Shown: piece by piece, positions 11,402-34,562 of the stretch
How the letters are laid out: every line of letters begins with the position of its first letter
Position numbering within the stretch: position 1 is the stretch's first letter
Source of the DNA: Minisyncoccota bacterium
Lineage (GTDB): Bacteria > Patescibacteriota > Minisyncoccia > Phycocordibacterales > SBAW01
Length of the DNA stretch: 64,000 bases
NCBI GenBank assembly: GCA_035546575.1
Contig: DASZWN010000003.1
Location: forward strand, 1,530-65,529
Direction: 5' to 3'
Translations under genes and position numbers: made by a program
Notes under the pieces: generated by a model
The model's input: only the letters and a program-made list of their open reading frames with translations
What the model was told of the DNA's origin: nothing
The model's database searches: none

Positions 11402-11412
11402 CGAAAACATTG

Positions 11413-11418
11413 TAGAAT
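11413..11418 (+). promoter_or_regulatory. -10 hexamer TAGAAT 8 nt upstream of the ATG at 11427 (leaderless-type)
   Basis: TAGAAT-aagctttt-ATG; no Shine-Dalgarno. Confidence 0.35.
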
Positions 11419-11426
11419 AAGCTTTT

Positions 11427-15605: not shown

Positions 15606-16478
15606 ATGGACGCAAAGCCCACAGTTGGATTTATTGGACAAGGATTTATCGGTAAGAATTATGCCGACGATTTTGAACGTCGCGGCTACGGTGTTGTGCG
15701 CTATGCGCTTGAGCCGCAGTTTGCCTCTAACAAAGAAAAGATCGCGGATTGCGAATTTGTGCTTATCGCGGTCCCGACACCCACTACCCCAGAAGGCTTT
15801 GACGACTCAGTGTTGCGCGCGGTCTTGCCGCTTGTAGGAATAGGCAAGACAGCTGTTATAAAGTCGACTACGTATCCCGGCACCGCAAAAAAACTGCAGG
15901 CCCTATTCCCCGACCGCACGATACTGCACTCGCCGGAATTCTTGAGGGAAAGGACCGCTGCAGAAGACGCGGCACAACCTAAGCGCAACCTTATCGGTCT
16001 CTCGCAGCACACGCCGCTCCAACGGGAGCGAGCGGAGACTCTGCTCGCGATACTACCCTCGGCGCCCTACATACGCATCGCAGACGCGACGGAAACAGAA
16101 TTGATCAAATACGCGGGGAACGCGTTCCTCTTCTTTAAAGTGCTGTACGCAAACTTTTTCTACGACTTAGCCCAGTCGCTTGGGGTCGACTACGAGACGG
16201 TTGCCGACGCGGTTGCAGCCGATCCGCGCATCGGACCGTCTCATTTACAAGTGATCGACCAAAGCGGCCATAACGGAGCTGTTTCCGGACGCGGCGCAGG
16301 CGGGCATTGTCTTATAAAAGACTTTGCGGCGCTTAGGGAGTTATACGAAGAAGTGATGCCTGGGGATAAAGAAGGCAGCGCGCTTCTGCGAGCGTTTGAG
16401 CAAAAGAACGCAGCGCTGCTAAAAAATAGTGGCAAAGATCTCGACCTGCTTAATGGAGTATACGGAGATACCCTATGA
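15606..16478 (+). CDS. Nucleotide-sugar dehydrogenase family protein (UDP-glucose/GDP-mannose 6-dehydrogenase-like), unusually short at 290 aa
   Basis: N-terminal GFIGQGFIG Rossmann motif and catalytic-Cys motif GGHCLIKD (compare GGSCFPKD). Too short to hold the usual C-terminal UDP-binding domain. Confidence 0.6.
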   Translation: MDAKPTVGFIGQGFIGKNYADDFERRGYGVVRYALEPQFASNKEKIADCEFVLIAVPTPTTPEGFDDSVLRAVLPLVGIGKTAVIKSTTYPGTAKKLQALFPDRTILHSPEFLRERTAAEDAAQPKRNLIGLSQHTPLQRERAETLLAILPSAPYIRIADATETELIKYAGNAFLFFKVLYANFFYDLAQSLGVDYETVADAVAADPRIGPSHLQVIDQSGHNGAVSGRGAGGHCLIKDFAALRELYEEVMPGDKEGSALLRAFEQKNAALLKNSGKDLDLLNGVYGDTL

Positions 16479-17500
16479 AGCTCCTCATTCTTACGCAGAT
16501 CGTTGATCAAAACGACCACAGCCTCGGGTTCTTCCATTCGTGGATAGAGGAGCTTTCTACATATTTTGAGAAGATCACGGTTATTTGTCTAAAAGAGGGA
16601 GCTCATTCGTTGCCGCAACATGTCTCTGTTGTGAGCCTGGGCAAGGAAAGAGGAACTTCGCGTCCTGTACGCCTGTGGTTGCTGTTGCGTTACTCCTTAG
16701 CCCACCGAAACGAATACGACTCTGTATTTGTGCATATGAACCAGGAGTATATTCTCGCGGCAGGTCTTCTCTGGAAGTTCCTCGGTAAGCCTATATATAT
16801 GTGGCGCAACCATTACGCAGGAAGCATCCTCACCGACATTGCGGCTACATTTTGTAAAAATGTCTTCTGTACTTCAAAGTTTTCTTATACGGCAAAGTAT
16901 CGCAAGACTATACTCATGCCGATCGGAGTGAATCTTGCGCTATACCACAATACGGGGGTGAGACGTATCCCCCGCTCAGTACTTTTCTATGCGCGCCTTT
17001 CCCCCAGCAAACGTCCTCATGTCCTTATAGAGGCCCTCGTTATGCTCAAGAAGAAAGGGGTCGTATATACTGCAGATATCTATGGTACGGCGCTTCCTAA
17101 AGATGAGGAATATCTTATGCGACTTAAACGTCGAGTTACGGAGTCCGGCCTTGATGGCCAGATAAAATTTTATCCTGGCACGCCACCCGCAGAAGGTCCT
17201 GCAATATTTTCCGCACATGAGATATTTGTAAATCTTGGAGAGAGCGGAATGTACGACAAAACGCTCTTTGAGGCTGCAGCTTGCGGATCTCTGGTGATTG
17301 CGGCAAGTAAAGATTGGGCATCCTTGGTGCACGGCCGCGTTGTAGAGAGTGAAGAGTCGCTCGCGCAAGTAATTGAGGAGACGCTCTCATTCTCGCAAGA
17401 AGAACAAGAAGCAGCAAGGGCTACTTTTCGTCGAGCAGTAGAGGAACATAGTCTCTCAGTGCTTGGTGAGCGGCTTGCAAAGACGATGTTAGCTAACTAA
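16475..17500 (+). CDS. Glycosyltransferase (GT-B fold, GT4-like)
   Basis: Two-domain GT-B architecture with a C-terminal ...LFEAAACGSLVIAAS motif. Confidence 0.55.
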   Translation: MKLLILTQIVDQNDHSLGFFHSWIEELSTYFEKITVICLKEGAHSLPQHVSVVSLGKERGTSRPVRLWLLLRYSLAHRNEYDSVFVHMNQEYILAAGLLWKFLGKPIYMWRNHYAGSILTDIAATFCKNVFCTSKFSYTAKYRKTILMPIGVNLALYHNTGVRRIPRSVLFYARLSPSKRPHVLIEALVMLKKKGVVYTADIYGTALPKDEEYLMRLKRRVTESGLDGQIKFYPGTPPAEGPAIFSAHEIFVNLGESGMYDKTLFEAAACGSLVIAASKDWASLVHGRVVESEESLAQVIEETLSFSQEEQEAARATFRRAVEEHSLSVLGERLAKTMLAN

Positions 17501-17515: not shown

Positions 17516-17878
17516 ATGGCCTACATATATTTATTACTCGCGTTTGTCATTAACGCTCTTGCTAGCATCTTACTAAAGCTCGATGCGGCAGGGGCACCGC
17601 TCTCGTTTGAGCGGGGACTTAGTGCGACTATCTTTGAGCACAAACTACTCATGTTAGGGCTCATATCTTTTGCTGCAAATGTGATCTTTTATTGGTTGGC
17701 GCTTAAGTCGCTCCCCTTAAGCGTGGCCTACCCCACTATGGTGGGCGGTAGTTTTATTATTGTGCTTGGCTACGCAGCGTTTGCGCTGCACGAAGGAGTC
17801 TCTTTGACCCAGATTACCGGGTACGTCTTGATTTTTGTGGGGATTTTGCTCGTGCTTTTGAAGGGCGCGAACTCATAA
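17516..17878 (+). CDS. Small 4-TM DMT/SMR-superfamily transporter (EamA-like; ArnE/ArnF-like undecaprenyl-phosphate-sugar flippase subunit candidate)
   Basis: 120 aa, four predicted TM helices, the size class of ArnE/ArnF/SMR proteins, set among glycan genes. Confidence 0.55.
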   Translation: MAYIYLLLAFVINALASILLKLDAAGAPLSFERGLSATIFEHKLLMLGLISFAANVIFYWLALKSLPLSVAYPTMVGGSFIIVLGYAAFALHEGVSLTQITGYVLIFVGILLVLLKGANS

Positions 17879-18839
17879 GATCGATAATTGTCTGCGCAAA
17901 TAGAGGCGCCAGCGGCAATACCGTAACTCTTGCTTGTTTTGAGCGGAGGGCCACATGCGGGATGGTGTCGGTAAGTATAAGCCCGCTCAAAGCGCTCTGG
18001 AGATTTTTGAGTGCATTGCCGGAGAGCACTGCGTGGCTGGCAAACGCGCTTACTGTTTTTGCTCCGGCTTTTTTTGCCACTGCCGCCGCTTGTACAAGGG
18101 TGCCGCCGCTATCTATCATGTCGTCGACAAACAGCACATGCTTGCCGGTTATCTTTTCCGGAGTCGCGGTTGTCATGCTTTTAACGGCGCCATGCTCGTG
18201 ACGACTCTTTTCAAAAAATACGACGTCGCTGGCGCCAAGCAATGTTGCTAATGCTTGCGCGCGAGCAATACCGCCGCGGTCTGGCGATGCAACCGCAAAG
18301 GGTTTCTTGAGTGTCTTTTTAACATATGCCGCTGCGAGCGGCGCGGCGCTCAGGTGCAGCACCTCCAAACCGCCAAAATGCTCAAGCGTATGCTCGGCGT
18401 GTATGTCGACCACGATAACGCGCGAGGCTCCCGAGCGGGCGAGCAAGTCCATTACTACTCGTGAGCTGAGCGGCTTGCCGGGCTTGTGCTTGTCTTGTCG
18501 GTTGTAGGAGAGGTAAGGAATGATAAGCGTGACGCACTTTGCTCCGCCGCCGCGCGCCGCATCGGCCATAAACGCGAGCTCAAGCAGATTGTCCGTTGGC
18601 GCGTGGGTGGGACCTACAATAAAGACATCTTTTCCAACAACGTCGTCTAATAGTTGCGCGCGCAGCTCGCCGTCGCTAAAGCGCTCTAAACGCACTTTGC
18701 CCAGGGGTACACGCAAGAGCTTGCCTATAGCAAGCGCCATCGAGGTGCCTGGTGTGCTGGCAAACAGTGCAATAGATGCCTTATAGCTTGCTTTCCCCAT
18801 GTGTGGGCCAATCGTATCGATACAAAAGAAGCAAGTCAA
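17814..18839 (-). CDS. prs: Ribose-phosphate pyrophosphokinase (PRPP synthetase)
   Basis: Full-length match to the Prs pattern (FSDGE, DIHA, VDDMIDSGGTL PRPP-binding loop). Start is ambiguous between the ATG at 18839 and the ATG at 18800 (MGKASYKAS...). A C-terminal basic extension overlaps the convergent gene by 65 nt. Confidence 0.85.
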   Translation of the reverse strand: MTCFFCIDTIGPHMGKASYKASIALFASTPGTSMALAIGKLLRVPLGKVRLERFSDGELRAQLLDDVVGKDVFIVGPTHAPTDNLLELAFMADAARGGGAKCVTLIIPYLSYNRQDKHKPGKPLSSRVVMDLLARSGASRVIVVDIHAEHTLEHFGGLEVLHLSAAPLAAAYVKKTLKKPFAVASPDRGGIARAQALATLLGASDVVFFEKSRHEHGAVKSMTTATPEKITGKHVLFVDDMIDSGGTLVQAAAVAKKAGAKTVSAFASHAVLSGNALKNLQSALSGLILTDTIPHVALRSKQARVTVLPLAPLFAQTIIDLMSSRPSKARAKSPQKSRRTR

Positions 18840-18858
18840 TCAGTAAGATTACGAGCGG

Positions 18859-20154
18859 TTGTCAATAATGATTTTTTGTGCTAAAAATGCGCCACCTATG
18901 CGGCTCACAGATCTCGAAAAAATAGAGAACTCGACCGTTATCCTAGATATAGACGGTACGCTCACGCACCCTGGCGGCAGCACTATTGTGCCTGAGATTA
19001 TGGAGGCTGTAGAGCGCTTGCGCACTCACAACGATGTCTACCTCCTCTCAAACCGTGGCGATCATGTGCGCGATGCAGCAATCGCTCAGATACTCGGTGT
19101 CGGCTACATAGAGACATCGCACCGCAAACCCGACCCCCGCGCACTGCGCAGCCTCGAGCGCAAACGCGCCGCTCTTGTTGTCATAGGCGACAAAATACTT
19201 ACCGACGGACTCCTCGCGCTCATGACAGGCGCGCGGTTTATACACATCAGCCGTATCGTGAGCGCTCATGACTCATCTGCCGATCAATTGGCGCATGCGA
19301 TAGACGACACTGTCGCCCATGCGTTCTCTTTACTGCGCCTTTTGCGGCCGGTGCAGTGGGCTAAAAACGCGCTCGTGTTTGTGCCGCTCTTTTTTGCACG
19401 CGAGTTTTTTGATGCGGGTGCGCTGGGGAGTATTACCGCAGTATTTTTTGCCTTTTGTTTTATCGCAAGCGCCGGGTACATCATCAACGACATGCTCGAC
19501 GTCGAGGCCGACCGCGCGCACCCGCGCAAGCGCAATCGCCCGCTCGCCTCGGGCGAGGTATTGATGCCCGAAGCGCTCACAGCGGCAGCGCTTCTTCTTA
19601 TGGCATCGGCGGCGTTGTTTCTTGCATACGCTCCTGCTGCTCTATTGGTGGGAGGTGTCTACTTTGCTTCCTCCCTTGTCTACAGCTCGTATATAAAAAA
19701 GATTCCGCTCCTCGAGATGGTCGGCTTCATGTGGTTTTATTTTGCGCGGGTACTTGCAGGCAGCGTTGCGGTAAGCATACCGCTCTCCGCCTGGCTTATA
19801 CTCGCTATTCTGTTCCTCTCACTCTTTTTTATCGCCGCAAAACGCTATGCAGAAAAAACAAGCGGCCGTGGACGTAGCGTACTCGTGCACTATCCAGAAA
19901 AGTTTCTTGAAGGGCTCCTGTTCCTCAGCGCCGGTCTCGTGGTCGTGTTTTACGGACTGTACAGTATCCTGGGCGTCTCATCGCCTATCGCCGTATACTC
20001 AACGGTGCCGATACTTGCCGCAGTGATCCGCTACCTCCAGCTTTCGTTCTCAGGCCAGGGGACTGAATATCCGGAAAAACTTCTCTTTTCCGACTCGGGT
20101 ATTCGTATTGCCGGTGTCGCATGGTTCCTCCTCATGCTCGCGGTATTTTATTAG
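18859..20154 (+). CDS. Fusion protein: N-terminal HAD-superfamily phosphatase (YqeG/IIIA-like) + C-terminal UbiA-family polyprenyl-phosphate phosphoribosyltransferase (DPPR-synthase-like)
   Basis: HAD motifs I DIDGTL, II LLSN, III K (HRKPD), IV GDKILTD. Then 7-8 TM helices with the UbiA motif YIINDMLDVEADRAHPRKRNRPLASG (NDxxDxxxD...RPLxSG). Divergent from prs. Confidence 0.7.
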   Translation: MSIMIFCAKNAPPMRLTDLEKIENSTVILDIDGTLTHPGGSTIVPEIMEAVERLRTHNDVYLLSNRGDHVRDAAIAQILGVGYIETSHRKPDPRALRSLERKRAALVVIGDKILTDGLLALMTGARFIHISRIVSAHDSSADQLAHAIDDTVAHAFSLLRLLRPVQWAKNALVFVPLFFAREFFDAGALGSITAVFFAFCFIASAGYIINDMLDVEADRAHPRKRNRPLASGEVLMPEALTAAALLLMASAALFLAYAPAALLVGGVYFASSLVYSSYIKKIPLLEMVGFMWFYFARVLAGSVAVSIPLSAWLILAILFLSLFFIAAKRYAEKTSGRGRSVLVHYPEKFLEGLLFLSAGLVVVFYGLYSILGVSSPIAVYSTVPILAAVIRYLQLSFSGQGTEYPEKLLFSDSGIRIAGVAWFLLMLAVFY

Positions 20155-20190
20155 CCGCTTCGCTTATATTTTACATGTGCTCGTGGTATA

Positions 20191-20196
20191 TATAAT
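20191..20196 (+). promoter_or_regulatory. -10 hexamer TATAAT 6 nt upstream of the ATG at 20203 (leaderless-type)
   Basis: tggTATATATAAT-ccacat-ATG; no Shine-Dalgarno. Confidence 0.4.
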
Positions 20197-20202
20197 CCAC
20201 AT

Positions 20203-21237
20203 ATGCGTTTTTTTATCACAGGGGGTGCGGGGTTTTTGGGGATTAATCTAGTACGGAATCTGTTGGCAAAAGGCCATGAAGTGCGCTCCTACGATCTCCT
20301 CCCTTTTGATTATCCTGAGAAGGATCGCGTCAGTGCAGTCGAGGGCGATATACGCGACTACGATGCGCTGGTGCAGGCAATGCAGGGGGCCGACGTGGTG
20401 ATACACACGGCAGCCGCACTCCCGCTCTATAAGGCAGAAGATATCCGCACGACCGACATTGACGGCACACGCAATGTGCTCAAGGCGGCAAAGCAAAATA
20501 ACATTTCGCGAGTAGTGCATGTCTCGTCCACTGCCGTGTATGGTATCCCCGACCACCACCCGCTCTACGAGGACGACAAGCTCGACGGTGTGGGCGAGTA
20601 CGGCAAGGCAAAAATCGCCGCCGAAGATATTTGTAAGGAGTATCGCGCGCAGGGCATGATTGTGCCGATTATCCGACCAAAATCTTTTATCGGCCCGGAG
20701 CGCTTGGGAGTGTTTGCGCTCTTTTACGATTGGGCCGCAGACGGGCACAACTTCCCCACGATCGGCAACGGCAAAAACCGCTACCAGCTGCTCGATGTTG
20801 AGGATTTGTGCGACGCGATCTACCTGGTTTCCACGCTGCCAGCAGAAAAGGCTAACGACACGTTTAATATCGGTGCAAAGGAGTTTATGACGATGCGCGA
20901 AGATTATCAGGCGGTGCTCGATCGCGCTGGCTTTGGCAAGCGCGTTATCGGTTTGCCAGCTGCGCCTGCAATCTGGACGCTGCGGTTCCTCGAGATGCTG
21001 CACCTCTCGCCGCTTTACAAGTGGGTCTACGAGACTGCAAGCAAAGACAGTTTTGTATCGATAGAAAAAGCACAAAAGAAATTGGGCTATGCGCCTAAGT
21101 ACTCCAATAAAGATGCGCTTATACGCAATTACGAATGGTATCTCAGCAAGCGCGAGAGTTTTAAGGGCGAGAGTGGCGTAACGCATCGCGTCCCGTGGAA
21201 GCAAGGCATACTTTCTATCGCCAAATTGTTCTTTTAA
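20203..21237 (+). CDS. NAD-dependent epimerase/dehydratase (3-beta-HSD-like extended SDR)
   Basis: FITGGAGFLGINLV Rossmann motif and catalytic YGKAK. Confidence 0.8.
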   Translation: MRFFITGGAGFLGINLVRNLLAKGHEVRSYDLLPFDYPEKDRVSAVEGDIRDYDALVQAMQGADVVIHTAAALPLYKAEDIRTTDIDGTRNVLKAAKQNNISRVVHVSSTAVYGIPDHHPLYEDDKLDGVGEYGKAKIAAEDICKEYRAQGMIVPIIRPKSFIGPERLGVFALFYDWAADGHNFPTIGNGKNRYQLLDVEDLCDAIYLVSTLPAEKANDTFNIGAKEFMTMREDYQAVLDRAGFGKRVIGLPAAPAIWTLRFLEMLHLSPLYKWVYETASKDSFVSIEKAQKKLGYAPKYSNKDALIRNYEWYLSKRESFKGESGVTHRVPWKQGILSIAKLFF

Positions 21238-21250
21238 ACGGGATACGCCT

Positions 21251-22777
21251 ATGCCTCCAATTAAAAAGCTGGCGAGTGTAGAGGGTGCGCTGCTGGCGCT
21301 TCTGGGAGCGGGCGCTTTTCTGTCGGTTTTATTCGCGCTCGGTTTCCCTTTTGATCATAATGAGCACATGTATTTGACGGCGGGGCGCCTCCTTGCCGAA
21401 TATCCTCTATATACTGCAGTCGGATATGTACAAATGCCCTTGCTCCCCTGGATATATTCGATTTTGTTCCCCGTCGGGCATCTGTTGGGCGCTCCAGCGC
21501 TGCTGGTAGCTCGCTTGGTAACCGCCGCCGCATTTTTAGGAACGGTCTTTTTTGCCGTTCGTATCGTGTATATATGGGTGCCTGCCGCATGGTTCGCGTA
21601 TGCAATAGGTTGTCTGGTTCTTTTTGATAAGATACTCCAGTTCGCAGCACGCGAAGCAGACGCCGACATGCTGGCGCTCCTATGCTGGGCGGCTGCTCTG
21701 TATCTGTGGTCTCGAGCGATCCGCGAACATAAAGGCTCGTTATATTTTTTCAGCATAGGATCCCTGATAACGGGTGCGGCCCTGCTCCGACTTTTTTATA
21801 TGCCTCTTATTCTTCTCGCTATCGCAGCTCCTTTTTTCCTTTTGTCGGAAGGTGAAGGATTGCCTGTCGCTCTGCGACGGGCTCTATGGATTGTCGGAGG
21901 CATGGTAGTGTCGGCCACGCCATTCCTGCTTTTATATGGACCCCATGTACCCGTAGTATGGGACATGGTATTCAGCTATCACCAGCTTAACGCTGCAGAT
22001 CAAAGCGCTATTTCTGGCCTAAGCCAAAAATTAGCACTTGCATATGCGGCATTTTCAAGTCCCGCCACCTGGACGGGCGTGCTGCTTGTCATTGTTGCAC
22101 TTTGGCTTGGAAAAGCGTCGGATCTCGCCTTTGGCCTGTCACTAAGAGCCCGTTTCGGTCTTTTTGTGCTTGTGCTTGGAGGCCTAGAATGTGTGCTTGC
22201 TTTTGCGCCGACTCCGGTGTGGAGCACCTATTTTGCGCCTTTCCTTCTGTTTTCAGTCTTAGGAGGCGCAGTACTATTGCCTCAGGCGGAAGAAAGGTAT
22301 GCATCGCTTATGCAAGCATTTTGTGTTGGGCTGATCGTAATTAATCTGCCTTTTGCTCTCCAGCAAGTCGTACGCGGCGCTTATGCCTGGGTTCACCCGT
22401 CTTCTCTTCCATTTATCGCCATATCTACTGACGCGAAGCGTATCGATGATCATTTCGCCGCAGGCACCAGCTTCGCAACATTAACACCGGGCTTTCTGAT
22501 TGATACGGATATTAGGCTATTGCCTCAATTTGCTAGCGGTCCATTCCTGTATCGCGTAGGAGATACGTGGTCGCCTCAGGAGCGGACCATGCTCGGTATT
22601 GCAACCCCGTCCTCCCTGAATACCCTTTTTGCTATTCAAAAGCCGGACGCCATCATGGTCGGATGCGAAGGGGAGCTTGACGCGTCGCTTGAGCAGTACG
22701 CCTTAACAAACAGCTACCAGCGTATCCCAGGGACATATTTTGGGTGTGCGCGTATATACGAAAGAATCAAATCATGA
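21251..22777 (+). CDS. Polytopic membrane protein, putative GT-C-type glycosyltransferase
   Basis: About 12 predicted TM helices; acidic motif FDHNEH in the first extracytoplasmic loop; placement among polyprenyl-P-sugar genes. Confidence 0.45.
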   Translation: MPPIKKLASVEGALLALLGAGAFLSVLFALGFPFDHNEHMYLTAGRLLAEYPLYTAVGYVQMPLLPWIYSILFPVGHLLGAPALLVARLVTAAAFLGTVFFAVRIVYIWVPAAWFAYAIGCLVLFDKILQFAAREADADMLALLCWAAALYLWSRAIREHKGSLYFFSIGSLITGAALLRLFYMPLILLAIAAPFFLLSEGEGLPVALRRALWIVGGMVVSATPFLLLYGPHVPVVWDMVFSYHQLNAADQSAISGLSQKLALAYAAFSSPATWTGVLLVIVALWLGKASDLAFGLSLRARFGLFVLVLGGLECVLAFAPTPVWSTYFAPFLLFSVLGGAVLLPQAEERYASLMQAFCVGLIVINLPFALQQVVRGAYAWVHPSSLPFIAISTDAKRIDDHFAAGTSFATLTPGFLIDTDIRLLPQFASGPFLYRVGDTWSPQERTMLGIATPSSLNTLFAIQKPDAIMVGCEGELDASLEQYALTNSYQRIPGTYFGCARIYERIKS

Positions 22778-23847
22778 TTCGCATCTCAACACGCGTGCAG
22801 ATTACGATACTCGCGCTTCTTTACGTACTGCTTTCATGCGCGGTTTTTGCTTTTGGTGTTCATAAGAGTGTTTACTCTGTTTCCAGCACGGACCGCGTAT
22901 ATTACGAAGAGTTTTATGCTGGCGCATTAGACAAAAACTCCCCGCAACGTTTCTCCAACCCGCCACAAGGCACCAGTATTATTTTTGCCGGCCCCGATGG
23001 CGCAGCTGGCTTGCATGCGGGCATACACTTTGAGCCGATAAAGTATGCAGCCGCGGCAGTCTGGACTGTCTTTGGTGGAGCGCATGCGGTGGAGCTGTTT
23101 TACATAGCACTGTTCTTTTTGCCGCTCTTGTACGGCGGTTATATCTTGTATGCGCGAGGCGGGGACACCACACTCTTTCTTTGCCTACTTGCATACGCTT
23201 TCTCTCCGGCGGTCCTCAACACCGCAACAGACGACCTGCGCCCGTATATCGCACTTTTGCCCGGAGTACTTCTATTCTTTCTTTCAGTTCTTTATAAACG
23301 CCCTGTCTGGGAGAAATTCTTGTTTTTAAACCTCGTGCTGGCAGTCAGAGAAGAGGCGCTTTTGTTAGTGCTGCCGGTGCTCGCGTACCTGTTTGTGCGA
23401 GAGTACGCCTCGGGCATATCGCGCACTAGTTGGGCGCTACTTTTTAATTGGTGTGGCTGGTTGCTCGCTAATACTTTGTATATTGCATGGATAGCGCCGC
23501 ACTACGCGGTGCGGGGGAGTTGGTCTGCCCTTTTTAGCATCAGCGAGAGACATCTTTCTGTGGTGCTGGTTGTAATTCTGGTAGCCGCAGGGGTAACTGT
23601 CTGGGCACTAGCAAACAGAGATCGGATTTTCAGCTTTCCGTATCTGGCGGAGATTCTTTTGCTCGCCCCATTTCTGGCGCTGCTTGTTGCTTCGCCGTTT
23701 CTTACCCTCTCAGCGCCTTTCTCTTCGCTCTCCTCGGTACTTCAAAATATTTCAGGCCGCTATGGCATGATACTCACGGTCTTTCTACTTATGTTTGTGT
23801 TAGCGCAATTTGTAGATAACCATGTCAGGACCAAACTGTTTTCCTGA
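22774..23847 (+). CDS. Polytopic membrane protein, function unknown
   Basis: About 10 TM helices; start taken at the ATG at 22774 (MIRIS...), which overlaps the upstream stop (ATGA). Confidence 0.45.
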   Translation: MIRISTRVQITILALLYVLLSCAVFAFGVHKSVYSVSSTDRVYYEEFYAGALDKNSPQRFSNPPQGTSIIFAGPDGAAGLHAGIHFEPIKYAAAAVWTVFGGAHAVELFYIALFFLPLLYGGYILYARGGDTTLFLCLLAYAFSPAVLNTATDDLRPYIALLPGVLLFFLSVLYKRPVWEKFLFLNLVLAVREEALLLVLPVLAYLFVREYASGISRTSWALLFNWCGWLLANTLYIAWIAPHYAVRGSWSALFSISERHLSVVLVVILVAAGVTVWALANRDRIFSFPYLAEILLLAPFLALLVASPFLTLSAPFSSLSSVLQNISGRYGMILTVFLLMFVLAQFVDNHVRTKLFS

Positions 23848-25467
23848 AAAAAGCTCTGTAAAAGGTCCGGTAAAGGCGCTATTTTGCATCGAGTAATCGG
23901 GCAGGCCCTCCCATGAGGCTACAAGCGCGCCCTTGGCTGCAAGGGCTCTAAGCCCCTTGAGCCGCTCCGGATCAGCCGCAGCGGCGCTCGGCGAGAAGAT
24001 GAGATAGTTGTAGCCATGCGCAGCCCAGTATGCGGGCAAGGTTTCGAAGAATGCTTCTTGGTTGACCGTAAAGAGATTGAGCGCATGTATGCCGTATGAA
24101 GGATCTGTTTTGCTGAGCGACTCGTCTGCCTCATCAGTACGGCGCACTGCGGAAGCATCGATAGCGCGCAGCTCTGCAACCGCATCGGCGGTGGCAGATA
24201 TACGCATGAGCGGTGCGTCAACAATAACTTTCTCATCTGCAGTATGTGCCAGCACCCACTCCCGTGCCATTGCTCTGGTGTCGCTCTCTATTGCAAGCAT
24301 GCTAAACCGCACGGACGCCACAAGCGGGATACACAACAAAACGCAAAGTAGCGCGAGCACCCATGTGCGGCGTGCCAGGTAGTCGAAGGCAAATCCGCCA
24401 GCCAATGTGTAAAAGATGAGTAGCGGCAGCATAAAGCGAGCTTCGAGTCGGAAGGCAGAGAAAAATATCGCACAGTAGGAGAGGAAGAATCCTAAAATAA
24501 AGTAAAACATCGGCCGCTTTACTATCACCAGAGTTATAAGCCCTGCAAGGAAGAGTCCAATGAGCACTGGCTCCGAGTATGCCTGCAAGAGTAGTATGCG
24601 CACGGGGCTCAAAAGCAGTGCATGTATGTCGAGATGGGCGAGCGAGGTAAGAAACGTGCCGTCACCTGCAAAACCATTGCTATTTTTGTAGAGGAGCGAG
24701 GGCAGGGCACATAAAAGGGCAAATAACACCACTGCGCCATAGAGCAGCTTTTCTTTAAAGATCTCGCGCAGACGCATGGTCCCTTGCGTGAGCCACCACC
24801 AGAAGATGAGCACTGGTGTAAGGATCAAAATAGGCGAGACTCCCACGCCAATGCCACCCGCGACCAGCGCCCAAAAATAGCGGCGCGACTCCCCTATGTG
24901 TGTGCGCGTGAGTATATAGAGCACGAGAACAAAAAAGAATGTTGCTGGCACCCAGTGGCGCGCTACCATCGAGAGCCCAATATCGAGCAAACTTGTTGCA
25001 AACAAAAAGGCAGTGACAAGCGCGGCGCGGCGCGAGAATAACGACTGCGCAATGCGATACAAAAGCCAGACAGAGGCGAGTGTAAAGGCAATTGAGATAA
25101 GCCGTGCGGCAATAAAAAATAGCGAGAGGTCGGAGAGCAAGTGAGCGCTAAAGAGCGCCGATCCCCCATGCCAGGAAAGATACTCAAATCCGAGTATCCC
25201 GATAAAGGGAGTCAGGAATATATACGAAAGGTAGGGCGGGTAGTAGAGGATGCCCGCAAAGGGTGCTGGATTGAGCGCCGGGATAACGGTCTTGAGTTGG
25301 ATCATCTGGAGAGCTCCAAGAATAAGAGACGGTTCATCGCTAATAGACGAGGTGAGGGGTAAGGCATAGAAGATCCCTACTATGCGCAAGCCAAAGGCAA
25401 GCAAAATAATCCCAACGAGGATCAGATGCGCCGGTTGCTGTAAAAAAAGTCTTATTCGGGTAACCAT
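23800..25467 (-). CDS. GT-C glycosyltransferase of the PMT/ArnT (GT39/GT83-like) family
   Basis: N-terminal TM plus a DE-containing first loop (SSISDEPSLILGALQM), about 11 TM helices, and a C-terminal soluble domain; this architecture is typical of ArnT/PMT_2. Confidence 0.65.
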   Translation of the reverse strand: MVTRIRLFLQQPAHLILVGIILLAFGLRIVGIFYALPLTSSISDEPSLILGALQMIQLKTVIPALNPAPFAGILYYPPYLSYIFLTPFIGILGFEYLSWHGGSALFSAHLLSDLSLFFIAARLISIAFTLASVWLLYRIAQSLFSRRAALVTAFLFATSLLDIGLSMVARHWVPATFFFVLVLYILTRTHIGESRRYFWALVAGGIGVGVSPILILTPVLIFWWWLTQGTMRLREIFKEKLLYGAVVLFALLCALPSLLYKNSNGFAGDGTFLTSLAHLDIHALLLSPVRILLLQAYSEPVLIGLFLAGLITLVIVKRPMFYFILGFFLSYCAIFFSAFRLEARFMLPLLIFYTLAGGFAFDYLARRTWVLALLCVLLCIPLVASVRFSMLAIESDTRAMAREWVLAHTADEKVIVDAPLMRISATADAVAELRAIDASAVRRTDEADESLSKTDPSYGIHALNLFTVNQEAFFETLPAYWAAHGYNYLIFSPSAAAADPERLKGLRALAAKGALVASWEGLPDYSMQNSAFTGPFTELFSGKQFGPDMVIYKLR

Positions 25468-25526
25468 GCTATAACAGGCGTATGTGCGATAGGCTTACCG
25501 CCTAGCTATTATAGACTGTAACTACT

Positions 25527-27251
25527 ATGGAGCCACACACAGGCAATGCACCATATCTACGCTTCTGGACGCAGACAGTCTCCTGGACGCTGAGTTTTCT
25601 TGCGCTCGGTATTATAGCCCTCTACACATTTGTATTGATAAGCAAGGGCACCAATGTCTGGGACGACAGTTTCATGTTTGTGCGCTACGCGCGCAACCTG
25701 TTTGCGCACGGAATGATCTCCTGGGACGGAATGCAGCCATCTTACGGTCTTACCTCACTGGCGCACCTATTTGTTGTTCTGCCTTTTGTAAAAATACTCC
25801 CAAACGCTTTTGCGGCGATCATTGCGGGAAGTATTACCGGATTTTTGCTATTTCTTGCGGCAACTTTTTTTCTTGTACGAACTATAGTTGCGCATCGAAC
25901 CGCTGTGTTGCCGCTATGTCTGGCTGTTATAGCGAGTGTTCTTGCACTCGGACATGAGTCGTTGAGCATCATCATCTCTAGCGGTATGGATACCATGACA
26001 TCTACTGCCTATCTGAGCCTATATCTCGGTATGCTTGTTCGCATAATGTCCGCCTCTAGAGACTATAGTCGCAGCCTTATAGTATCAGTGGGGATTTTGG
26101 GAGGCTGCGCATATGTAGTCCGCCCCGATTTGCTCATATACAGCGTTATGGTTCCGCTTGTATGTATACTGTGGTCCGACAACGCACAACTCCGGTCAAA
26201 CGCAAAAGTTTTGCTTGCTGCGACCGGCGCCACGGTGTTGCTGTTCCTTGGTGCTGCATGGATGTATTTTGGCACTCCGCTTCCGCTTCCGTTTTATGCC
26301 AAGAGCGGCCTGCTCTACGATCCAATACTCGCACAACGATATACGTTTATTCCGATACTGCAGTTTATTATTAGTCTAGATTCTTTTACCCTGCTCTGGT
26401 TCGCCCTGCCGCTGTTCTTTATTGCGATACGGAAGCAGCTTCTACGCCGTACGCCGTACGCCCTGTATGTAGGTATAGGGCTTTCTGTTTTTGCATTGAC
26501 AGCATATTTTCTCTTTTTTGTGATTCAGGTTATGCCATATGCAGGCAGATTTTATTACCCTGCACTACCGGGGCTTATCGCCTTACTCACCCTGCTTATA
26601 TGCAAAGGCTGGGATGCTATAGAGCCGCTATATAGGGGGAAAATCGTATACGGGGGCATATTAGGTGTATGTATTATCTTGACGGCCGTGCTACTGCCTC
26701 TTTTTGTACAAGCATCCGAATATACGATATATGCGCTCACACACCAGAGAGCCCAAGTACATCTATTGCTTAAAGGGACTACTGAAGATTCGTACCTCAA
26801 TAATCCCAGCCTTTTTGCTGTATGGCCTTGTCTTGCAGTAGCGGAAAATCTTCCTTCATCCATATCCCTAGCTACTACAGAAGTGGGAGTGCCCTCGGTA
26901 CTTAACTCACCACATCCGGTTCTGGACCTCTCCGGTCTTAACGACACTCAGATTGGCCTGGGCCATATATCCGTGGTGCAGGCGGTACTGGAGGCGCACA
27001 GCGACGTGGTGTACTTGCCAAGCGCTCGCGACTATCCAGCACTGCACACATCCTTGCTTGTCCAACCAGAGTTTAGGAAGAGCTATACGGTATATCCCGC
27101 AACTTCAACCGGCGCCCTTGGAGATGTTGCGGTGCGGCGCGAAAGCTCAGCTGCTGTACCCGTGGGGGCATGCATGCAAAAAGTCAGTTTACAGCCGCCG
27201 CCTCAGGGAGGCTTTTATCACATTACGCTTCCCTTTTTACTCAATGAATGA
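25527..27251 (+). CDS. Polytopic membrane protein, putative GT-C glycosyltransferase (DDx motif in first loop)
   Basis: VWDDSFMFVRYARNL after TM1; about 12 TM helices; C-terminal soluble domain. Confidence 0.5.
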   Translation: MEPHTGNAPYLRFWTQTVSWTLSFLALGIIALYTFVLISKGTNVWDDSFMFVRYARNLFAHGMISWDGMQPSYGLTSLAHLFVVLPFVKILPNAFAAIIAGSITGFLLFLAATFFLVRTIVAHRTAVLPLCLAVIASVLALGHESLSIIISSGMDTMTSTAYLSLYLGMLVRIMSASRDYSRSLIVSVGILGGCAYVVRPDLLIYSVMVPLVCILWSDNAQLRSNAKVLLAATGATVLLFLGAAWMYFGTPLPLPFYAKSGLLYDPILAQRYTFIPILQFIISLDSFTLLWFALPLFFIAIRKQLLRRTPYALYVGIGLSVFALTAYFLFFVIQVMPYAGRFYYPALPGLIALLTLLICKGWDAIEPLYRGKIVYGGILGVCIILTAVLLPLFVQASEYTIYALTHQRAQVHLLLKGTTEDSYLNNPSLFAVWPCLAVAENLPSSISLATTEVGVPSVLNSPHPVLDLSGLNDTQIGLGHISVVQAVLEAHSDVVYLPSARDYPALHTSLLVQPEFRKSYTVYPATSTGALGDVAVRRESSAAVPVGACMQKVSLQPPPQGGFYHITLPFLLNE

Positions 27252-28438: not shown

Positions 28439-29092
28439 ATGCAACTTAAGATCTCGATTTTGGTCGATAACCCAAACAGCTGGATTGTCCCGACTGCTCA
28501 AAGGCTCGTTTCGGCAATTGCAGAGCGCGGGCATACGGCTCAGCTGTTCCACACCCAGGAAGAAATTCCGGCCGGAGATATTGCATTTGTGCTGGGATGC
28601 GAAAAGATTCTTCCTGTTGAGGTGCTTCGTCGCAATACGCACAACATTGTGGTGCATCCGAGCGCGCTTCCACAGGGGCGGGGTTTCTCTCCGCTGACCT
28701 GGCAAATTTTGGATGGGAAGAACGACATTCCGGTCACGCTGTTTGAAGCTGCGGAAAAAGTCGACACCGGCCCCATATACCTTCAGGGTATGATCCACTT
28801 CGAAGGCCACGAGCTCAATCCTGAGCTTAAGGCGGCGCAGGGAGACATAACCATCAAACTCGCACTGCAGTTTCTAGATGAATATCCTCCGAAGGTTTCG
28901 CGGCTGCCCGAAGGAGAGGGCAGCTGGTATAAACGCCGATCTCCCGGAGACAGTAGGCTCGACCCGCACAAGACGTTGGCAGAGCAGTTTAATCTGCTGC
29001 GCGTGGCTGACAACGAACGGTATCCGGCCTTTTTCGAACTTGAGGGTCACCAATATGTCCTCCGCATAACCAAAACCGAGCCCGAAAAGTAA
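28439..29092 (+). CDS. Formyltransferase-family protein (Fmt/PurN/ArnA-N-like; candidate sugar N-formyltransferase)
   Basis: Formyl-transferase core NIVVHPSALPQGRGFSPLTWQILDG...VTLFEAAEKVDTGPI; good Shine-Dalgarno AAGGAG 8 nt upstream. Confidence 0.7.
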   Translation: MQLKISILVDNPNSWIVPTAQRLVSAIAERGHTAQLFHTQEEIPAGDIAFVLGCEKILPVEVLRRNTHNIVVHPSALPQGRGFSPLTWQILDGKNDIPVTLFEAAEKVDTGPIYLQGMIHFEGHELNPELKAAQGDITIKLALQFLDEYPPKVSRLPEGEGSWYKRRSPGDSRLDPHKTLAEQFNLLRVADNERYPAFFELEGHQYVLRITKTEPEK

Positions 29093-29109
29093 TTCCATGC
29101 ATTATGTAG

Positions 29110-29138
29110 AGCCCCCGCCCACGCGGGGGCTTCTTCTT
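29110..29138 (+). terminator. Rho-independent terminator after the formyltransferase gene
   Basis: GCCCCCGC-CCAC-GCGGGGGC followed by TTCTTCTT. Confidence 0.7.
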
Positions 29139-29188
29139 GGAAGAGTATTGTGAGATGGAGGAAAATATGCTTTTATTCACTACGCTAT

Positions 29189-30238
29189 ATGGTCAAATAC
29201 AAAAAACATTCAAAAACGATACTCTTTACGGGTGCGGCGGGCTTTATCGGAAGCAATGTCCTGGAGTACTTCTTCAAGAAATACCCGTCTTACAACTTTA
29301 TTGTGCTAGATGCGCTGACATATGCGGGCGACCTGGAGAATATTTCTTCTGAGTTGCGAAACAGTAACCGCTTTTCTTTTTGGTACGGAGACGTGCAAAA
29401 TGCAAAACTTGTCGACGATCTGGTTGCCAAGTCCGATATTGTGATCCACTTTGCCGCAGAGACCCATGTAACACGCTCAATTTTTGATAATTCTAAATTT
29501 TTTACTACCGATGTGCTTGGCACGCAGACTATTGCAAACGCGGTACTGGCGCATCAGGATACGATAGACCGCTTTATCCATATCTCTACCTGCGAGGTGT
29601 ATGGCGAAGGGTTAACCAAAAAGATGGACGAGTCCCACCCGCTCAATCCTCAGAGCCCGTATGCAGCAGCCAAGGCGGGAGCCGACCGGCTTGTATATTC
29701 GTATCAGCGTACCTATGGTCTCCCTGCTGTGATCGTAAGACCATTCAATATTTTGGGTCCTCGGCAGCATCTGGAAAAGGTAACGCCGCGTTTTATAACC
29801 AGCGCTTTGTTGGGTGAGGAGTTGACTGTGCATGGCAGCGGCACATACAGCCGCGACTTTATGTACGTTGAGGATCTTGCAAGAGCTCTCGATCTCATTG
29901 TGCATGCGCCGCGCGCCAAGGTGGTTGGCGAAGTGTTTAATGTCGGCTCAGGCAAAGCGCTTCCTATTATCGATCTTGCCACTATGATCGTGCAGATGAC
30001 TGGGTATAAGAAAAGCGCGATAAAACACGTAGGCGATCGACCAGGTCAGGTAAGCAACTTTGCCGCCGACTATGGAAAGATACAAAAACGTCTTAATTGG
30101 AAACCTGAAGTGTCGATACAGGAAGGTCTTGCCCGCACTATAGAGTGGTATCGTGCCAACCGACCCATTTGGGAGAAACAGATGTGGATGCGCCAAGTCC
30201 CCGTAAAGACCGCAAAAGGTAAGACAGAGCTCCACTAG
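29189..30238 (+). CDS. dTDP-glucose 4,6-dehydratase family (RmlB-like NDP-sugar 4,6-dehydratase)
   Basis: ILFTGAAGFIGSNV, catalytic S/T...YxxxK (SPYAAAKAGAD); overall RmlB-like length and motif spacing. An alternative GTG start lies at 29150. Confidence 0.8.
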   Translation: MVKYKKHSKTILFTGAAGFIGSNVLEYFFKKYPSYNFIVLDALTYAGDLENISSELRNSNRFSFWYGDVQNAKLVDDLVAKSDIVIHFAAETHVTRSIFDNSKFFTTDVLGTQTIANAVLAHQDTIDRFIHISTCEVYGEGLTKKMDESHPLNPQSPYAAAKAGADRLVYSYQRTYGLPAVIVRPFNILGPRQHLEKVTPRFITSALLGEELTVHGSGTYSRDFMYVEDLARALDLIVHAPRAKVVGEVFNVGSGKALPIIDLATMIVQMTGYKKSAIKHVGDRPGQVSNFAADYGKIQKRLNWKPEVSIQEGLARTIEWYRANRPIWEKQMWMRQVPVKTAKGKTELH

Positions 30239-30243
30239 CCTAC

Positions 30244-34488: not shown

Positions 34489-34550
34489 TAAGGAGACTTT
34501 TTCTATAGTTTTTGAGTTATCTATCTTGCAAAAAGGCCCGAAAAAGGCGA

Positions 34551-34556: not shown

Positions 34557-34562
34557 CGACTC

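What the first reader, a model, noticed from the sequence alone, without database searches (positions are those of the whole stretch)
17814..27251. Prs + HAD-phosphatase::UbiA fusion + SDR + three GT-C-like proteins: candidate polyprenyl-phospho-pentose (DPA-like) donor pathway
Seen in sequence: the PRPP synthetase gene (prs) is transcribed divergently, 19-58 bp away, from a single ORF that fuses a complete HAD phosphatase (DIDGTL / LLSN / K / GDKILTD) to a UbiA-family integral-membrane prenyltransferase carrying the NDxxDxxxD...RPLASG motif. An extended-SDR epimerase/dehydratase follows, then up to three polytopic membrane proteins, one confidently GT-C (PMT/ArnT-like), two GT-C-like by topology and loop motifs, plus an uncharacterised polytopic protein at 22774..23847.

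Established knowledge: in Corynebacterineae, decaprenyl-phospho-arabinose is made by UbiA-family DPPR synthase (Rv3806c) transferring 5-phosphoribose from PRPP to decaprenyl phosphate, then a phosphatase (Rv3807c), then 2'-epimerisation by DprE1/DprE2 (DprE2 is an SDR). GT-C arabinofuranosyltransferases then use that lipid-linked donor.

Inference: this locus encodes the same logic in a compact form (PRPP source, phosphoribosyl transfer to polyprenyl-P and 5'-dephosphorylation in one polypeptide, SDR epimerase, GT-C consumers). That would imply a pentofuranose-containing surface glycan in a lineage where none is described. The HAD fusion in place of a PAP2 phosphatase and the lack of a DprE1-like flavoenzyme would be novel.
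Basis: partly seen in the sequence, partly recalled or inferred. Interest (0 to 1): 0.8.

Follow-up and report, generated by a model that had tools for sequence, protein, structure and literature searches.

The report
Lipid-linked pentofuranose donor pathway in Patescibacteria
This gene cluster from an uncultivated ultra-small bacterium (Candidatus Paceibacterota) very probably makes a lipid-linked five-carbon furanose sugar from PRPP and attaches it to a surface glycan outside the cell; this kind of system was described in 2024 in Citrobacter, so it is a new variant in a new lineage, not a new pathway.

Summary

The "novel" points are already published. Kelly et al. 2024 (PMC11127046) showed that Citrobacter youngae ORF15 is a HAD-phosphatase::PPPRS fusion making undecaprenyl-P-ribofuranose. 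They also showed that a single GalE-like SDR (ORF13), without DprE1, converts the side chain to xylofuranose, and that MATE or SMR flippases and GT-C transferases complete the system.

- The arabinose (DPA) reading is not specifically supported.
- prs linkage is not conserved (window plus 1 of 51 loci).

New here are the lineage, an independently fused HAD subfamily and an AftB-like GT-C.

The parts
17516..17878 (+). SMR/ArnE-ArnF-like four-helix membrane protein (120 aa). Candidate flippase for the lipid-linked pentofuranose.
   Evidence: NCBIfam ArnF E = 4.5e-8 and ArnE E = 1.2e-5; Pfam Multi_Drug_Res and EamA match weakly. All are below the curated cut-offs. A homologue lies within 3.5 kb of the UbiA gene in 32 of 51 related loci. 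A profile of the CPR copies hits the annotated SMR transporter next to the SDR homologue on Rhizobium sp. CCGE531 pRCCGE531b at E = 8e-22.
17814..18800 (-). prs, ribose-phosphate diphosphokinase (PRPP synthase). A local, non-conserved accessory to the module.
   Evidence: TIGR01251 scores 263 bits against a cut-off of 113. It is adjacent to the fusion only in this window and in L051, an Adlerbacteria MAG.
18898..19308 (+). N-terminal capless HAD phosphatase domain of the fusion protein. Predicted polyprenyl-P-ribose-5-P 5'-phosphatase.
   Evidence: Motifs D30xD32GT, S64N65, K90 and G110D111..D116 are invariant in 16 CPR orthologues. YqeG TIGR01668 scores 60 bits (cut-off 89); PGP_phosphatase PF09419 gives E = 1e-6. 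It is about 75 aa shorter than the capped PF12710-type HAD of the proteobacterial fusions.
19321..20154 (+). UbiA-family polyprenyl-phosphate 5-phosphoribosyltransferase domain (DPPRS/PPPRS-like).
   Evidence: NF008978 DPPRS scores 190 bits (cut-off 207); every non-DPPRS prenyltransferase model scores 41 bits or less. It aligns over its full length with Rv3806c (8J8J), E = 1e-34. Of the 13 PRPP/decaprenyl-P contact residues of Rv3806c (PMC10994848), 11 are identical, including the 5-phosphate ligands K169, Y207 and Y294.
20203..21237 (+). Extended (GalE-like) SDR with a conserved C-terminal tail. Predicted epimerase acting on polyprenyl-P-ribofuranose.
   Evidence: Pfam Epimerase E = 4e-41. 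It has TGGAGFLG, SST and YGKAK. It lies within 3.5 kb of the UbiA gene in 47 of 51 HAD-linked loci but in only 1 of 29 UbiA-only loci. Identity is 66-77% across CPR classes, 51-53% to haloarchaeal copies and 44% to a Streptomyces copy, each of these next to a DPPRS gene.
21251..22777 (+). Polytopic membrane protein (508 aa), near-orphan. Possibly a distant PMT_2-like GT-C.
   Evidence: Only 4 homologous clusters among 5.8 billion proteins. A DHNEHMY motif after TM1 is conserved. hhalign to the PMT_2-type cluster gives 83.7% probability, E = 8e-6. The AF2 model is unreliable, pLDDT 52.6.
22774..23847 (+). Polytopic membrane protein (357 aa), a short member of a DUF2079-related family. Role unknown.
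   Evidence: 133 representative homologues, mostly about 500 aa, align to their N-terminal 350 aa. 6 of 30 relatives hit Pfam DUF2079, best E = 1.7e-13. A homologue is present only in L003 and L051 among the related loci.
23800..25467 (-). PMT_2-family GT-C glycosyltransferase (555 aa).
   Evidence: Pfam PF13231 PMT_2 scores 38.4 bits against a cut-off of 26.1. Homologues occur in 4 related CPR loci.
25527..27251 (+). AftB-like GT-C glycosyltransferase (574 aa). The conserved transferase partner of the module.
16475..17500 (+). GT4 glycosyltransferase that travels with the module in many CPR loci. Probably builds the acceptor.
   Evidence: Pfam Glycos_transf_1. A homologue lies upstream of the module in 22 of the 33 N-terminally fused loci.

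Best explanation
The locus encodes a polyprenyl-phosphate-linked pentofuranose donor pathway. It is of the "three-component" type described for Citrobacter youngae O antigens, and it sits inside a large Wzx/Wzy-type surface-polysaccharide locus of a Candidatus Paceibacterota bacterium.

Proposed steps:
1. On the cytoplasmic face, the UbiA/DPPRS-like domain transfers 5-phosphoribose from PRPP to a polyprenyl phosphate. Here PRPP is supplied by the adjacent prs.
2. The fused capless HAD domain removes the 5-phosphate, giving polyprenyl-P-ribofuranose.
3. The tightly linked extended SDR epimerises the lipid-linked ribose by transient NAD-dependent oxidation and reduction. By analogy with ORF13 the most likely product is xylofuranose (C3). 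Arabinofuranose (C2) is the alternative.
4. The SMR-like protein flips the donor across the membrane.
5. The AftB-like GT-C (25527-27251) transfers the pentofuranose to an extracytoplasmic glycan acceptor. The PMT_2-type GT-C probably does so too, and the two other polytopic proteins possibly. The acceptor would be made by the flanking GT4/Wzx/Wzy genes.

Shown here: domain identities, conserved catalytic and substrate-binding residues, gene co-occurrence, and the fold of the AftB-like GT-C. Inferred: every catalytic activity, the identity of the pentose, the flippase role and the acceptor.
For: - UbiA domain is DPPRS-type. 11 of 13 Rv3806c PRPP/lipid-P ligands are conserved, including the three 5-phosphate ligands.
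- HAD catalytic motifs are invariant in 16 orthologues.
- In 51 related loci the same HAD is N-fused (33) or split/adjacent (18) to the UbiA gene, so the pairing survives rearrangement.
- The SDR is present in 47 of 51 of these loci against 1 of 29 UbiA-only loci. It is also adjacent to DPPRS genes in haloarchaea and Streptomyces.
- An SMR-like gene is present in 32 of 51 loci. Its profile matches the SMR transporter beside the SDR homologue in the Rhizobium CCGE531 system that Kelly et al. list.
- GT-C 25527-27251 matches AftB best by three independent methods and keeps the DD and R199 residues.
- There is published biochemical precedent for the same architecture: ORF15 HAD::PPPRS makes farnesyl-P-Ribf, the ORF13 SDR gives Xylf, and SMR or MATE flippases and GT-C enzymes complete the system (PMC11127046).
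- The flanks encode GT4s, a Wzx-like flippase and a Wzy_C protein.
Against: - There is no biochemical or glycan-composition evidence for this organism.
- The DPPRS equivalog model falls just below its cut-off (190 bits against 207), and the SMR matches are below curated cut-offs.
- Orthology of the SDR to C. youngae ORF13 could not be tested because that sequence is not in any accessible collection. C3 versus C2 epimerisation, or another redox role, therefore stays open.
- The HAD is of a different subfamily from the characterised PRP domain, so its substrate is inferred from the fusion alone.
- Two of the four polytopic proteins are not established as glycosyltransferases.
- prs linkage is not conserved.
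Confidence: 0.75

Rival explanations
1. One reading: the product is polyprenyl-P-arabinofuranose (DPA-like). The SDR acts as a 2'-epimerase that replaces DprE1/DprE2, and the donor feeds arabinofuranosyltransferases.
For: The conserved GT-C is closest to AftB, a DPA-using arabinofuranosyltransferase. A GalE-type SDR could in principle epimerise C2 on its own.
Against: There is no DprE1, DprE2 or GMC oxidase homologue in the 64-kb window, and the only locus among those searched that has DprE1/DprE2 homologues is a Desulfocapsaceae one. In the published survey every Araf system had DprE1/E2, while the Xylf systems had the ORF13-type SDR. GT-C donor specificity is loose: ORF12 uses both Ribf and Xylf donors. 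At 16% identity to AftB the donor sugar cannot be inferred.
Confidence: 0.2
2. The donor stays polyprenyl-P-ribofuranose. The SDR serves another step of the surrounding polysaccharide locus, such as a nucleotide-sugar epimerase or dehydratase.
For: The SDR's nearest solved relatives are nucleotide-sugar 4,6-dehydratases and epimerases. The locus holds several other nucleotide-sugar enzymes.
Against: The SDR is the gene most tightly linked to HAD-UbiA, 47 of 51 loci. It is also more conserved than the fusion itself, 66-77% against about 35-50% identity. It sits beside DPPRS genes in Archaea and Actinobacteria whose flanks differ. Its family-specific C-terminal tail HRVPWKQGIL..AK.FF is absent from the other SDR-type oxidoreductase of the Rhizobium system; the window's RmlB-like SDR is only 25% identical.
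Confidence: 0.12
3. The UbiA domain is an ordinary prenyltransferase (quinone, haem O, chlorophyll or ether-lipid synthesis) that happens to lie next to a generic YqeG-like HAD. There is no sugar-donor pathway.
For: Public annotation is only "UbiA family prenyltransferase". The HAD resembles YqeG and PGP phosphatases.
Against: DPPRS models score 138-190 bits against 41 or less for all other UbiA subfamilies. PDB Rv3806c scores 124 bits against 34 for DGGGP synthase and 23 for UbiA. The phosphoribose-specific ligands are conserved. The module is consistently linked to GT-C, SDR and SMR genes.
Confidence: 0.02

Closest known systems
Citrobacter youngae O1/O2 three-component pentofuranose side-chain system: ORF15 PRP::PPPRS, ORF14 flippase, ORF12 GT-C (GT136) and ORF13 SDR epimerase. 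Kelly et al., PNAS 2024, PMC11127046.
   Same: An N-terminal HAD phosphatase is fused to a DPPRS-like UbiA domain. A single cytoplasmic GalE-like SDR stands in for DprE1/DprE2. A small flippase is present (SMR in some published systems). GT-C transferase(s) are present. The module is embedded in a polysaccharide locus. Published "elaborate" versions also have several GT-Cs or epimerases.
   Different: The HAD here is a capless HAD-IIIA (YqeG/PGP-phosphatase-like) domain of about 125 aa. It is not the capped PF12710-type seen in the proteobacterial fusions compared here (taken as ORF15-like; ORF15 itself was not available), which implies an independent fusion. The conserved GT-C is AftB-like rather than the ArnT-like GT136 founder. 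There are up to four polytopic proteins and an adjacent prs. The lineage is Patescibacteria, which the paper does not mention. Orthology of the SDR to ORF13 was not tested.
Mycobacterial decaprenyl-phospho-arabinose pathway and arabinan assembly: Rv3806c, Rv3807c, DprE1/DprE2, Rv3789, and AftA/B/C/D with Emb.
   Same: A DPPRS-type first enzyme with conserved PRPP and lipid-phosphate ligands. The GT-C is homologous to AftB and keeps the catalytic DD motif. From my own knowledge, aftB (Rv3805c) lies next to ubiA (Rv3806c) in M. tuberculosis.
   Different: The phosphatase is a fused HAD, not a PAP2 enzyme. There is no DprE1 or DprE2. The flippase candidate is SMR-like, whereas many related systems use a GtrA-type protein, so the sugar need not be arabinose.
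Rhizobium sp. CCGE531 pRCCGE531b and haloarchaeal plasmid loci (Haloterrigena, Natronococcus, Halostagnicola): uncharacterised DPPRS + SDR + GT-C clusters.
   Same: They carry the same SDR family, at 37.6% and 51-53% identity, next to a DPPRS-type gene. In Rhizobium an SMR transporter matches the CPR SMR profile. In Haloterrigena there are two GT-C genes and a DMT transporter.
   Different: Rhizobium has a capped-HAD fusion plus a GMC oxidoreductase and a second oxidoreductase. Haloterrigena has an unfused DPPRS with a PHP-domain protein in place of a HAD. None of these loci has been characterised experimentally.
ArnT/ArnE/ArnF lipid A L-Ara4N modification system.
   Different: The Arn donor is made from a UDP-sugar by a GT2 enzyme, not from PRPP. 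The sugar is a pyranose and the acceptor is lipid A.

Membership tests
Three-component extracytoplasmic pentofuranosylation system (Kelly et al. 2024) | UbiA-family polyprenyl-phosphate 5-phosphoribosyltransferase (PPPRS/DPPRS-like) | tested here: met
   DPPRS models are the best hits, at 190, 162 and 138 bits. Full-length alignment to Rv3806c gives E = 1e-34. 11 of 13 substrate ligands are conserved.
Three-component extracytoplasmic pentofuranosylation system (Kelly et al. 2024) | A phosphoribose 5'-phosphatase, fused or adjacent to the PPPRS, with intact catalytic residues | tested here: met
   HAD motifs I-IV are invariant in 16 orthologues. The HAD is fused or adjacent to the UbiA gene in 51 loci.
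Three-component extracytoplasmic pentofuranosylation system (Kelly et al. 2024) | The phosphatase belongs to the characterised capped PRP-type HAD subfamily | tested here: not met
   The domain is capless: only 34 aa separate motif I from motif II. It matches YqeG and PGP_phosphatase. The proteobacterial fusions carry a HAD about 75 aa longer, of the PF12710 type.
Three-component extracytoplasmic pentofuranosylation system (Kelly et al. 2024) | MATE- or SMR-family flippase encoded with the synthase | tested here: met
   A 120-aa SMR/ArnE/F-like gene is present, though its scores are below curated cut-offs. It is conserved in 32 of 51 loci. Its profile matches the Rhizobium SMR transporter at E = 8e-22. 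Flippase activity itself cannot be tested with these tools.
Three-component extracytoplasmic pentofuranosylation system (Kelly et al. 2024) | GT-C fold glycosyltransferase encoded with the synthase | tested here: met
   PMT_2 passes its Pfam threshold for 23800-25467. For 25527-27251 a high-confidence AF2 model has AftB, ArnT and PMT as top structural matches.
Three-component extracytoplasmic pentofuranosylation system (Kelly et al. 2024) | The auxiliary epimerase is an orthologue of ORF13 (Ribf to Xylf) | not testable with these tools
   The SDR has the TGxxGxxG and YxxxK motifs, as ORF13 does. The ORF13 sequence (MH325884.1) is not in any collection reachable here.
CAZy GT136 (C. youngae ORF12) | Sequence similarity to ORF12 and its conserved D31/E34/H106/R349 set | not tested
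The best sequence and structure match of the conserved GT-C is AftB, which argues against GT136 membership.
Mycobacterial DPA pathway | DprE1-type FAD oxidase plus DprE2-type classical SDR for 2'-epimerisation | tested here: not met
   phmmer with the rhizobial DprE1-like, DprE2-like and GMC proteins finds nothing in the six-frame ORFs of the window. Clear DprE1/DprE2 homologues appear only in a Desulfocapsaceae locus; two CPR loci give only weak generic SDR matches to the DprE2-like query.
Mycobacterial DPA pathway | PAP2-type phosphatase (Rv3807c) and GtrA-type flippase (Rv3789) | tested here: not met
   No PAP2 or GtrA family appears among the Pfam assignments of the locus genes. A GtrA query finds hits only in two Peregrinibacteria loci.
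AftB-type (GT89-like) GT-C arabinofuranosyltransferases | GT-C-A fold with the catalytic Asp of a DD motif at the first juxtamembrane helix, and the phosphate-binding Arg (AftB D62, R221) | tested here: met
AftB-type (GT89-like) GT-C arabinofuranosyltransferases | Family-level sequence similarity over the whole protein, and use of a DPA donor with retention | tested here: inconclusive
   The profile match covers only the N-terminal 250 residues or so. Identity is 16% and TM-score about 0.5. Donor and stereochemistry cannot be tested here.
NCBIfam NF008978 decaprenyl-phosphate phosphoribosyltransferase (equivalog) | Score at or above the curated cut-off of 207 bits | tested here: not met
   190 bits. 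This is just below the cut-off, as expected for a divergent fused member.
YqeG family HAD-IIIA phosphatase (TIGR01668) | Score at or above the curated cut-off of 89.1 bits | tested here: not met
   60.4 bits. The domain is related to YqeG and PGP phosphatases but is not a YqeG equivalog.

The most novel reading that the evidence does not exclude
The highly conserved extended SDR is a stand-alone epimerase that makes polyprenyl-P-arabinofuranose or -xylofuranose without a DprE1-type flavoenzyme. The three or four GT-C-type proteins, AftB-like among them, then build a pentofuranose-rich envelope polymer rather than a single side-chain decoration. This would be an arabinan- or xylofuranan-like structure. 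It would be widespread in Patescibacteria and shared with haloarchaea through gene transfer, as the 51-53% identity of the SDR hints.
Probability: 0.15. Interest if true: 0.7.

Novelty: new variant of a known kind. Interest (0 to 1): 0.4.

Why it matters
Nothing experimental is known about the surface glycans of Patescibacteria/CPR, which are ultra-small bacteria that mostly live attached to other microbes. About 50 CPR species share a conserved module consisting of a HAD::DPPRS, an SDR, an SMR-like protein and an AftB-like GT-C. This predicts a pentofuranose-bearing envelope glycan in these organisms, and the prediction can be tested.

The locus extends the 2024 "three-component" pathway to a new phylum-level lineage. 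It shows that the synthase-phosphatase fusion arose at least twice, from different HAD subfamilies.

It also singles out an SDR family that accompanies DPPRS genes in Bacteria and Archaea and whose reaction (C2 or C3 epimerisation) has never been assayed for this clade.

It does not reveal a new kind of pathway.

Tried and rejected
- Reference sequences. I tried to obtain C. youngae ORF12, ORF13 and ORF15 or a published example. tblastn of the phage collection found only MT837543.1, not BK026208.1. E. coli RHB45-C06 cannot be searched by protein. I used Rhizobium sp. CCGE531 (cited in the paper's SI) and other plasmid loci as stand-ins.
- Direct phmmer of the four polytopic proteins against 80 related loci found few homologues. 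Clustering all the polytopic neighbours was needed to see that 25527-27251 belongs to the conserved partner family.
- The AF2 model of 21251-22777, built from a 5-sequence alignment, gave pLDDT 52.6. I did not use it for fold search.
- A PDB sequence search with 23800-25467 found nothing. A PDB profile search with the 22774-23847 family found only chance matches.
- hhalign between the 21251-22777 and 25527-27251 families found no relationship.
- Rejected: the UbiA domain as a quinone, haem, chlorophyll or ether-lipid prenyltransferase.
- Rejected: prs as a conserved member of the module.
- Rejected: a DprE1/E2-type epimerase hidden elsewhere in the window.
- Not done: a structure prediction of the fusion to see how the HAD faces the UbiA active site.

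Full report
**Observation**

The ORFs are as described.

- Pfam and NCBIfam identify prs at 17814-18839 (-), with TIGR01251 at 263 bits.
- The 18859-20154 (+) ORF combines HAD-family matches (YqeG TIGR01668 60 bits; PGP_phosphatase) with a UbiA domain (PF01040, 87.6 bits).
- An extended SDR lies at 20203-21237.
- A PMT_2 GT-C lies at 23800-25467 (-).
- Three further polytopic ORFs have no Pfam hit.

An exact-match look-up and a homologue search place the window in a Candidatus Paceibacterota (Patescibacteria/CPR) MAG. The fusion is publicly annotated only as "UbiA family prenyltransferase", with a 418- or 428-aa start. The prs-fusion gap is 19-97 bp depending on the start codons chosen. It converges on prs and overlaps its 3' end.

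**The fusion protein**

The UbiA part scores 190, 162 and 138 bits on the three NCBIfam decaprenyl-phosphate phosphoribosyltransferase models. It scores 41 bits or less on every quinone, haem O, chlorophyll or ether-lipid prenyltransferase model. It aligns over its whole length with M. tuberculosis Rv3806c (PDB 8J8J, E = 1e-34). DGGGP synthase and UbiA score 34 and 23 bits.

I mapped the residues that contact PRPP and decaprenyl phosphate in the Rv3806c structures (PMC10994848) through that alignment.

- R22, K28, Y70, N73, D77, K87, R90, Y138, K143, Y157 and K191 correspond to R163, K169, Y207, N210, D214, K224, R227, Y275, K280, Y294 and K328.
- Ten of these are invariant and Y294 nearly invariant among 16 CPR orthologues.
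- Only Q135 (here S272) and K208 (here S340, next to the invariant R339) differ.
- The three ligands of the ribose 5-phosphate are kept. This implies a 5-phosphorylated product, and therefore a need for a phosphatase.

The HAD motifs are also invariant: D30xD32GT, S64N65, K90 and G110D111xxxT115D116.

**Prior art**

Kelly, Duong, Nothof, Lowary and Whitfield (PNAS 2024, PMC11127046) established the following for Citrobacter youngae.

- O1 ORF15 is an N-terminal HAD "PRP" phosphatase fused to a DPPRS-like PPPRS. It makes farnesyl-P-ribofuranose from PRPP in vitro, and a D18A mutant accumulates the 5-phosphate intermediate.
- A single cytoplasmic GalE-like SDR, ORF13, switches the side chain from Ribf to Xylf, with no DprE1.
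- A MATE flippase (SMR in other systems) and a GT-C (GT136) complete the system. Araf-type systems carry DprE1/E2 instead. "Elaborate" versions have several epimerases or GT-Cs.

The paper lists Gram-negative, Gram-positive and phage examples but no Patescibacteria. A full-text search found no paper linking DPPRS-type enzymes to CPR.

**Comparative genomics**

A scan of one genome per GTDB species returned 80 loci. I called ORFs in them and searched with the window's proteins.

| Locus class | n | SDR within 3.5 kb | SMR-like within 3.5 kb | >=1 polytopic protein within 6 kb | prs |
|---|---|---|---|---|---|
| This HAD fused or adjacent to UbiA | 51 | 47 | 32 | 44 | 1 |
| UbiA only (mostly other phyla) | 29 | 1 | 1 | 18 | 0 |

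- Nearly all of the 51 HAD-linked loci are labelled as Patescibacteria/CPR MAGs. The capless HAD is N-terminally fused in 33 and split or adjacent in 18. Thirteen of the 18 have the HAD downstream of the UbiA gene.
- The single locus with prs is L051 (Adlerbacteria), in the same divergent position as in the window.
- The typical gene order is GT4, polytopic "c0", SMR, HAD::UbiA, SDR, polytopic "c1".
- prs is therefore a local addition, not part of the conserved module. It is not needed for the pathway, because PRPP is a universal metabolite.

**The SDR**

- It has the TGGAGFLG, SST and YGKAK motifs.
- It is 66-77% identical across CPR classes whose fusions are only about 35-50% identical.
- It carries a family-specific C-terminal tail, HRVPWKQGIL..AK.FF.
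- tblastn of plasmids found homologues at 51-53% identity in three haloarchaea and 44% in Streptomyces sp. SAT1. Each lies directly beside a DPPRS-type gene.
- In Haloterrigena the neighbours are a PHP-domain protein, two GT-C genes and a DMT transporter.
- A 37.6%-identical copy lies in the Rhizobium sp. CCGE531 system cited by Kelly et al., next to an SMR transporter. The CPR SMR profile matches that transporter at E = 8e-22.
- No DprE1-, DprE2- or GMC-type protein is encoded in the window. In the CPR loci there were only two weak SDR-type matches to the DprE2-like query; clear DprE1/DprE2 homologues occur only in a Desulfocapsaceae locus.

I could not obtain ORF13, so orthology is untested. 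By enzyme class and by the published rule, xylofuranose is the most likely product and arabinofuranose the main alternative.

**The HAD subfamily**

When aligned with the proteobacterial fusions (Rhizobium, Nevskia, Jannaschia, Myxococcota; PF12710-type), the CPR HAD lacks the cap insertion of about 75 residues after motif I. It resembles the capless HAD-IIIA, YqeG and PGP phosphatases. The same architecture therefore arose independently from a different HAD lineage.

**The polytopic proteins**

I clustered all the polytopic neighbours in the related loci.

*25527-27251.*
- It belongs to the largest cluster (29 members), which usually lies directly upstream of SMR/HAD::UbiA or downstream of the SDR.
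- Profiles of this family hit PDB AftB (9DLF) at E = 6e-15 and 1.4e-7. One profile gave two further marginal hits (E >= 0.002); for the other, AftB was the only hit at E <= 1.
- The AF2 model is confident, with pLDDT 91.7 and pTM 0.92.
- D46-D47 and R199 align with AftB's DD motif (catalytic D62) and with R221.

*23800-25467.* It is a PMT_2 GT-C.

*21251-22777.* It is almost an orphan, with 4 homologue clusters among 5.8 billion proteins. A profile link to the PMT_2-type cluster reaches 83.7% probability, and the model is unusable.

*22774-23847.* It is a short member of a family whose members are mostly about 500 aa, partly recognised as DUF2079. From memory, Pfam places DUF2079 in the GT-C clan; I did not check this here.

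**Context**

The module sits inside a polysaccharide locus of more than 30 kb. The locus encodes several GT4s, a formyltransferase, a dTDP-glucose-4,6-dehydratase-like SDR, a DegT aminotransferase, a sugar C-methyltransferase, a GT47-like protein, a Wzx-type flippase and a Wzy_C-TPR protein. This fits extracytoplasmic decoration or extension of a Wzx/Wzy-made glycan.

**Verdict**

It is wrong in its novelty claims, in singling out arabinose, and in treating prs as integral.

The locus is a new variant of the published three-component pentofuranose pathway. It has a different HAD subfamily, an AftB-like GT-C and extra GT-C candidates. It is widespread in a lineage where no such glycan has been described.

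My confidence in the system-level mechanism is about 0.75. Within it I rate Xylf at about 0.4-0.45, Araf at about 0.2, and unchanged Ribf or another product for the remainder.

Noticed in passing
window 20203-21237; L085:8959-10050; plasmids NZ_CP132295.1, NZ_CP099392.1, NZ_CP007056.1: The SDR is 51-53% identical to haloarchaeal plasmid genes that sit beside DPPRS-type genes. That is higher than its 37.6% identity to the rhizobial copy and suggests transfer between domains. In Haloterrigena the neighbouring phosphatase candidate is a PHP-domain protein rather than a HAD.
   Followed up: partly
L040, L041, L043, L045, L064, L070, L081, L082 (Peregrinibacteria, Kerfeldbacteria, Gracilibacteria loci): In these CPR lineages the same capless HAD lies downstream of the UbiA gene as a separate or C-terminal piece. 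In L064 and L070 the ORF that carries the HAD also matches a GtrA-family protein, and no SMR gene is detected there.
   Followed up: partly
window 15606-16478 (+): A 290-aa protein of the UDP-glucose/GDP-mannose dehydrogenase family has the N-terminal and central domains but no C-terminal domain hit. Similar genes recur upstream of the module in L003, L004, L008, L015 and L016.
   Followed up: no
window 17814-17878: The SMR-like gene and prs converge and overlap by 65 bp at their 3' ends. A shorter overlap of the same kind occurs in L051.
   Followed up: no
window 21251-22777 (+): This 508-aa polytopic protein has only four homologue clusters in 5.8 billion proteins, one of them from a Phycisphaerae MAG. 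It is absent even from the closest related locus, L003, where the fusion is 63% identical.
   Followed up: partly
window 28439-31374 and 33205-36610: A formyltransferase, a 4,6-dehydratase-like SDR, a DegT aminotransferase, a sugar C-methyltransferase and two further epimerase/reductase genes lie together. They suggest synthesis of a formamido- and/or C-methyl-branched deoxyhexose for the same glycan.
   Followed up: no
L083 (Rhizobium sp. SRDI969 plasmid) 7410-13156: A capped-HAD::UbiA fusion is followed by GtrA, a DprE1-like FAD oxidoreductase, a DprE2-like SDR and a 519-aa hypothetical membrane protein. This is an apparent arabinofuranose-type version of the system on a symbiotic plasmid.
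   Followed up: no
window 6195-7229 and 10568-11401: Upstream of the glycan locus are a PGA_cap (poly-gamma-glutamate capsule synthesis-like) protein and a lamin-tail-domain (LTD) protein.
   Followed up: no
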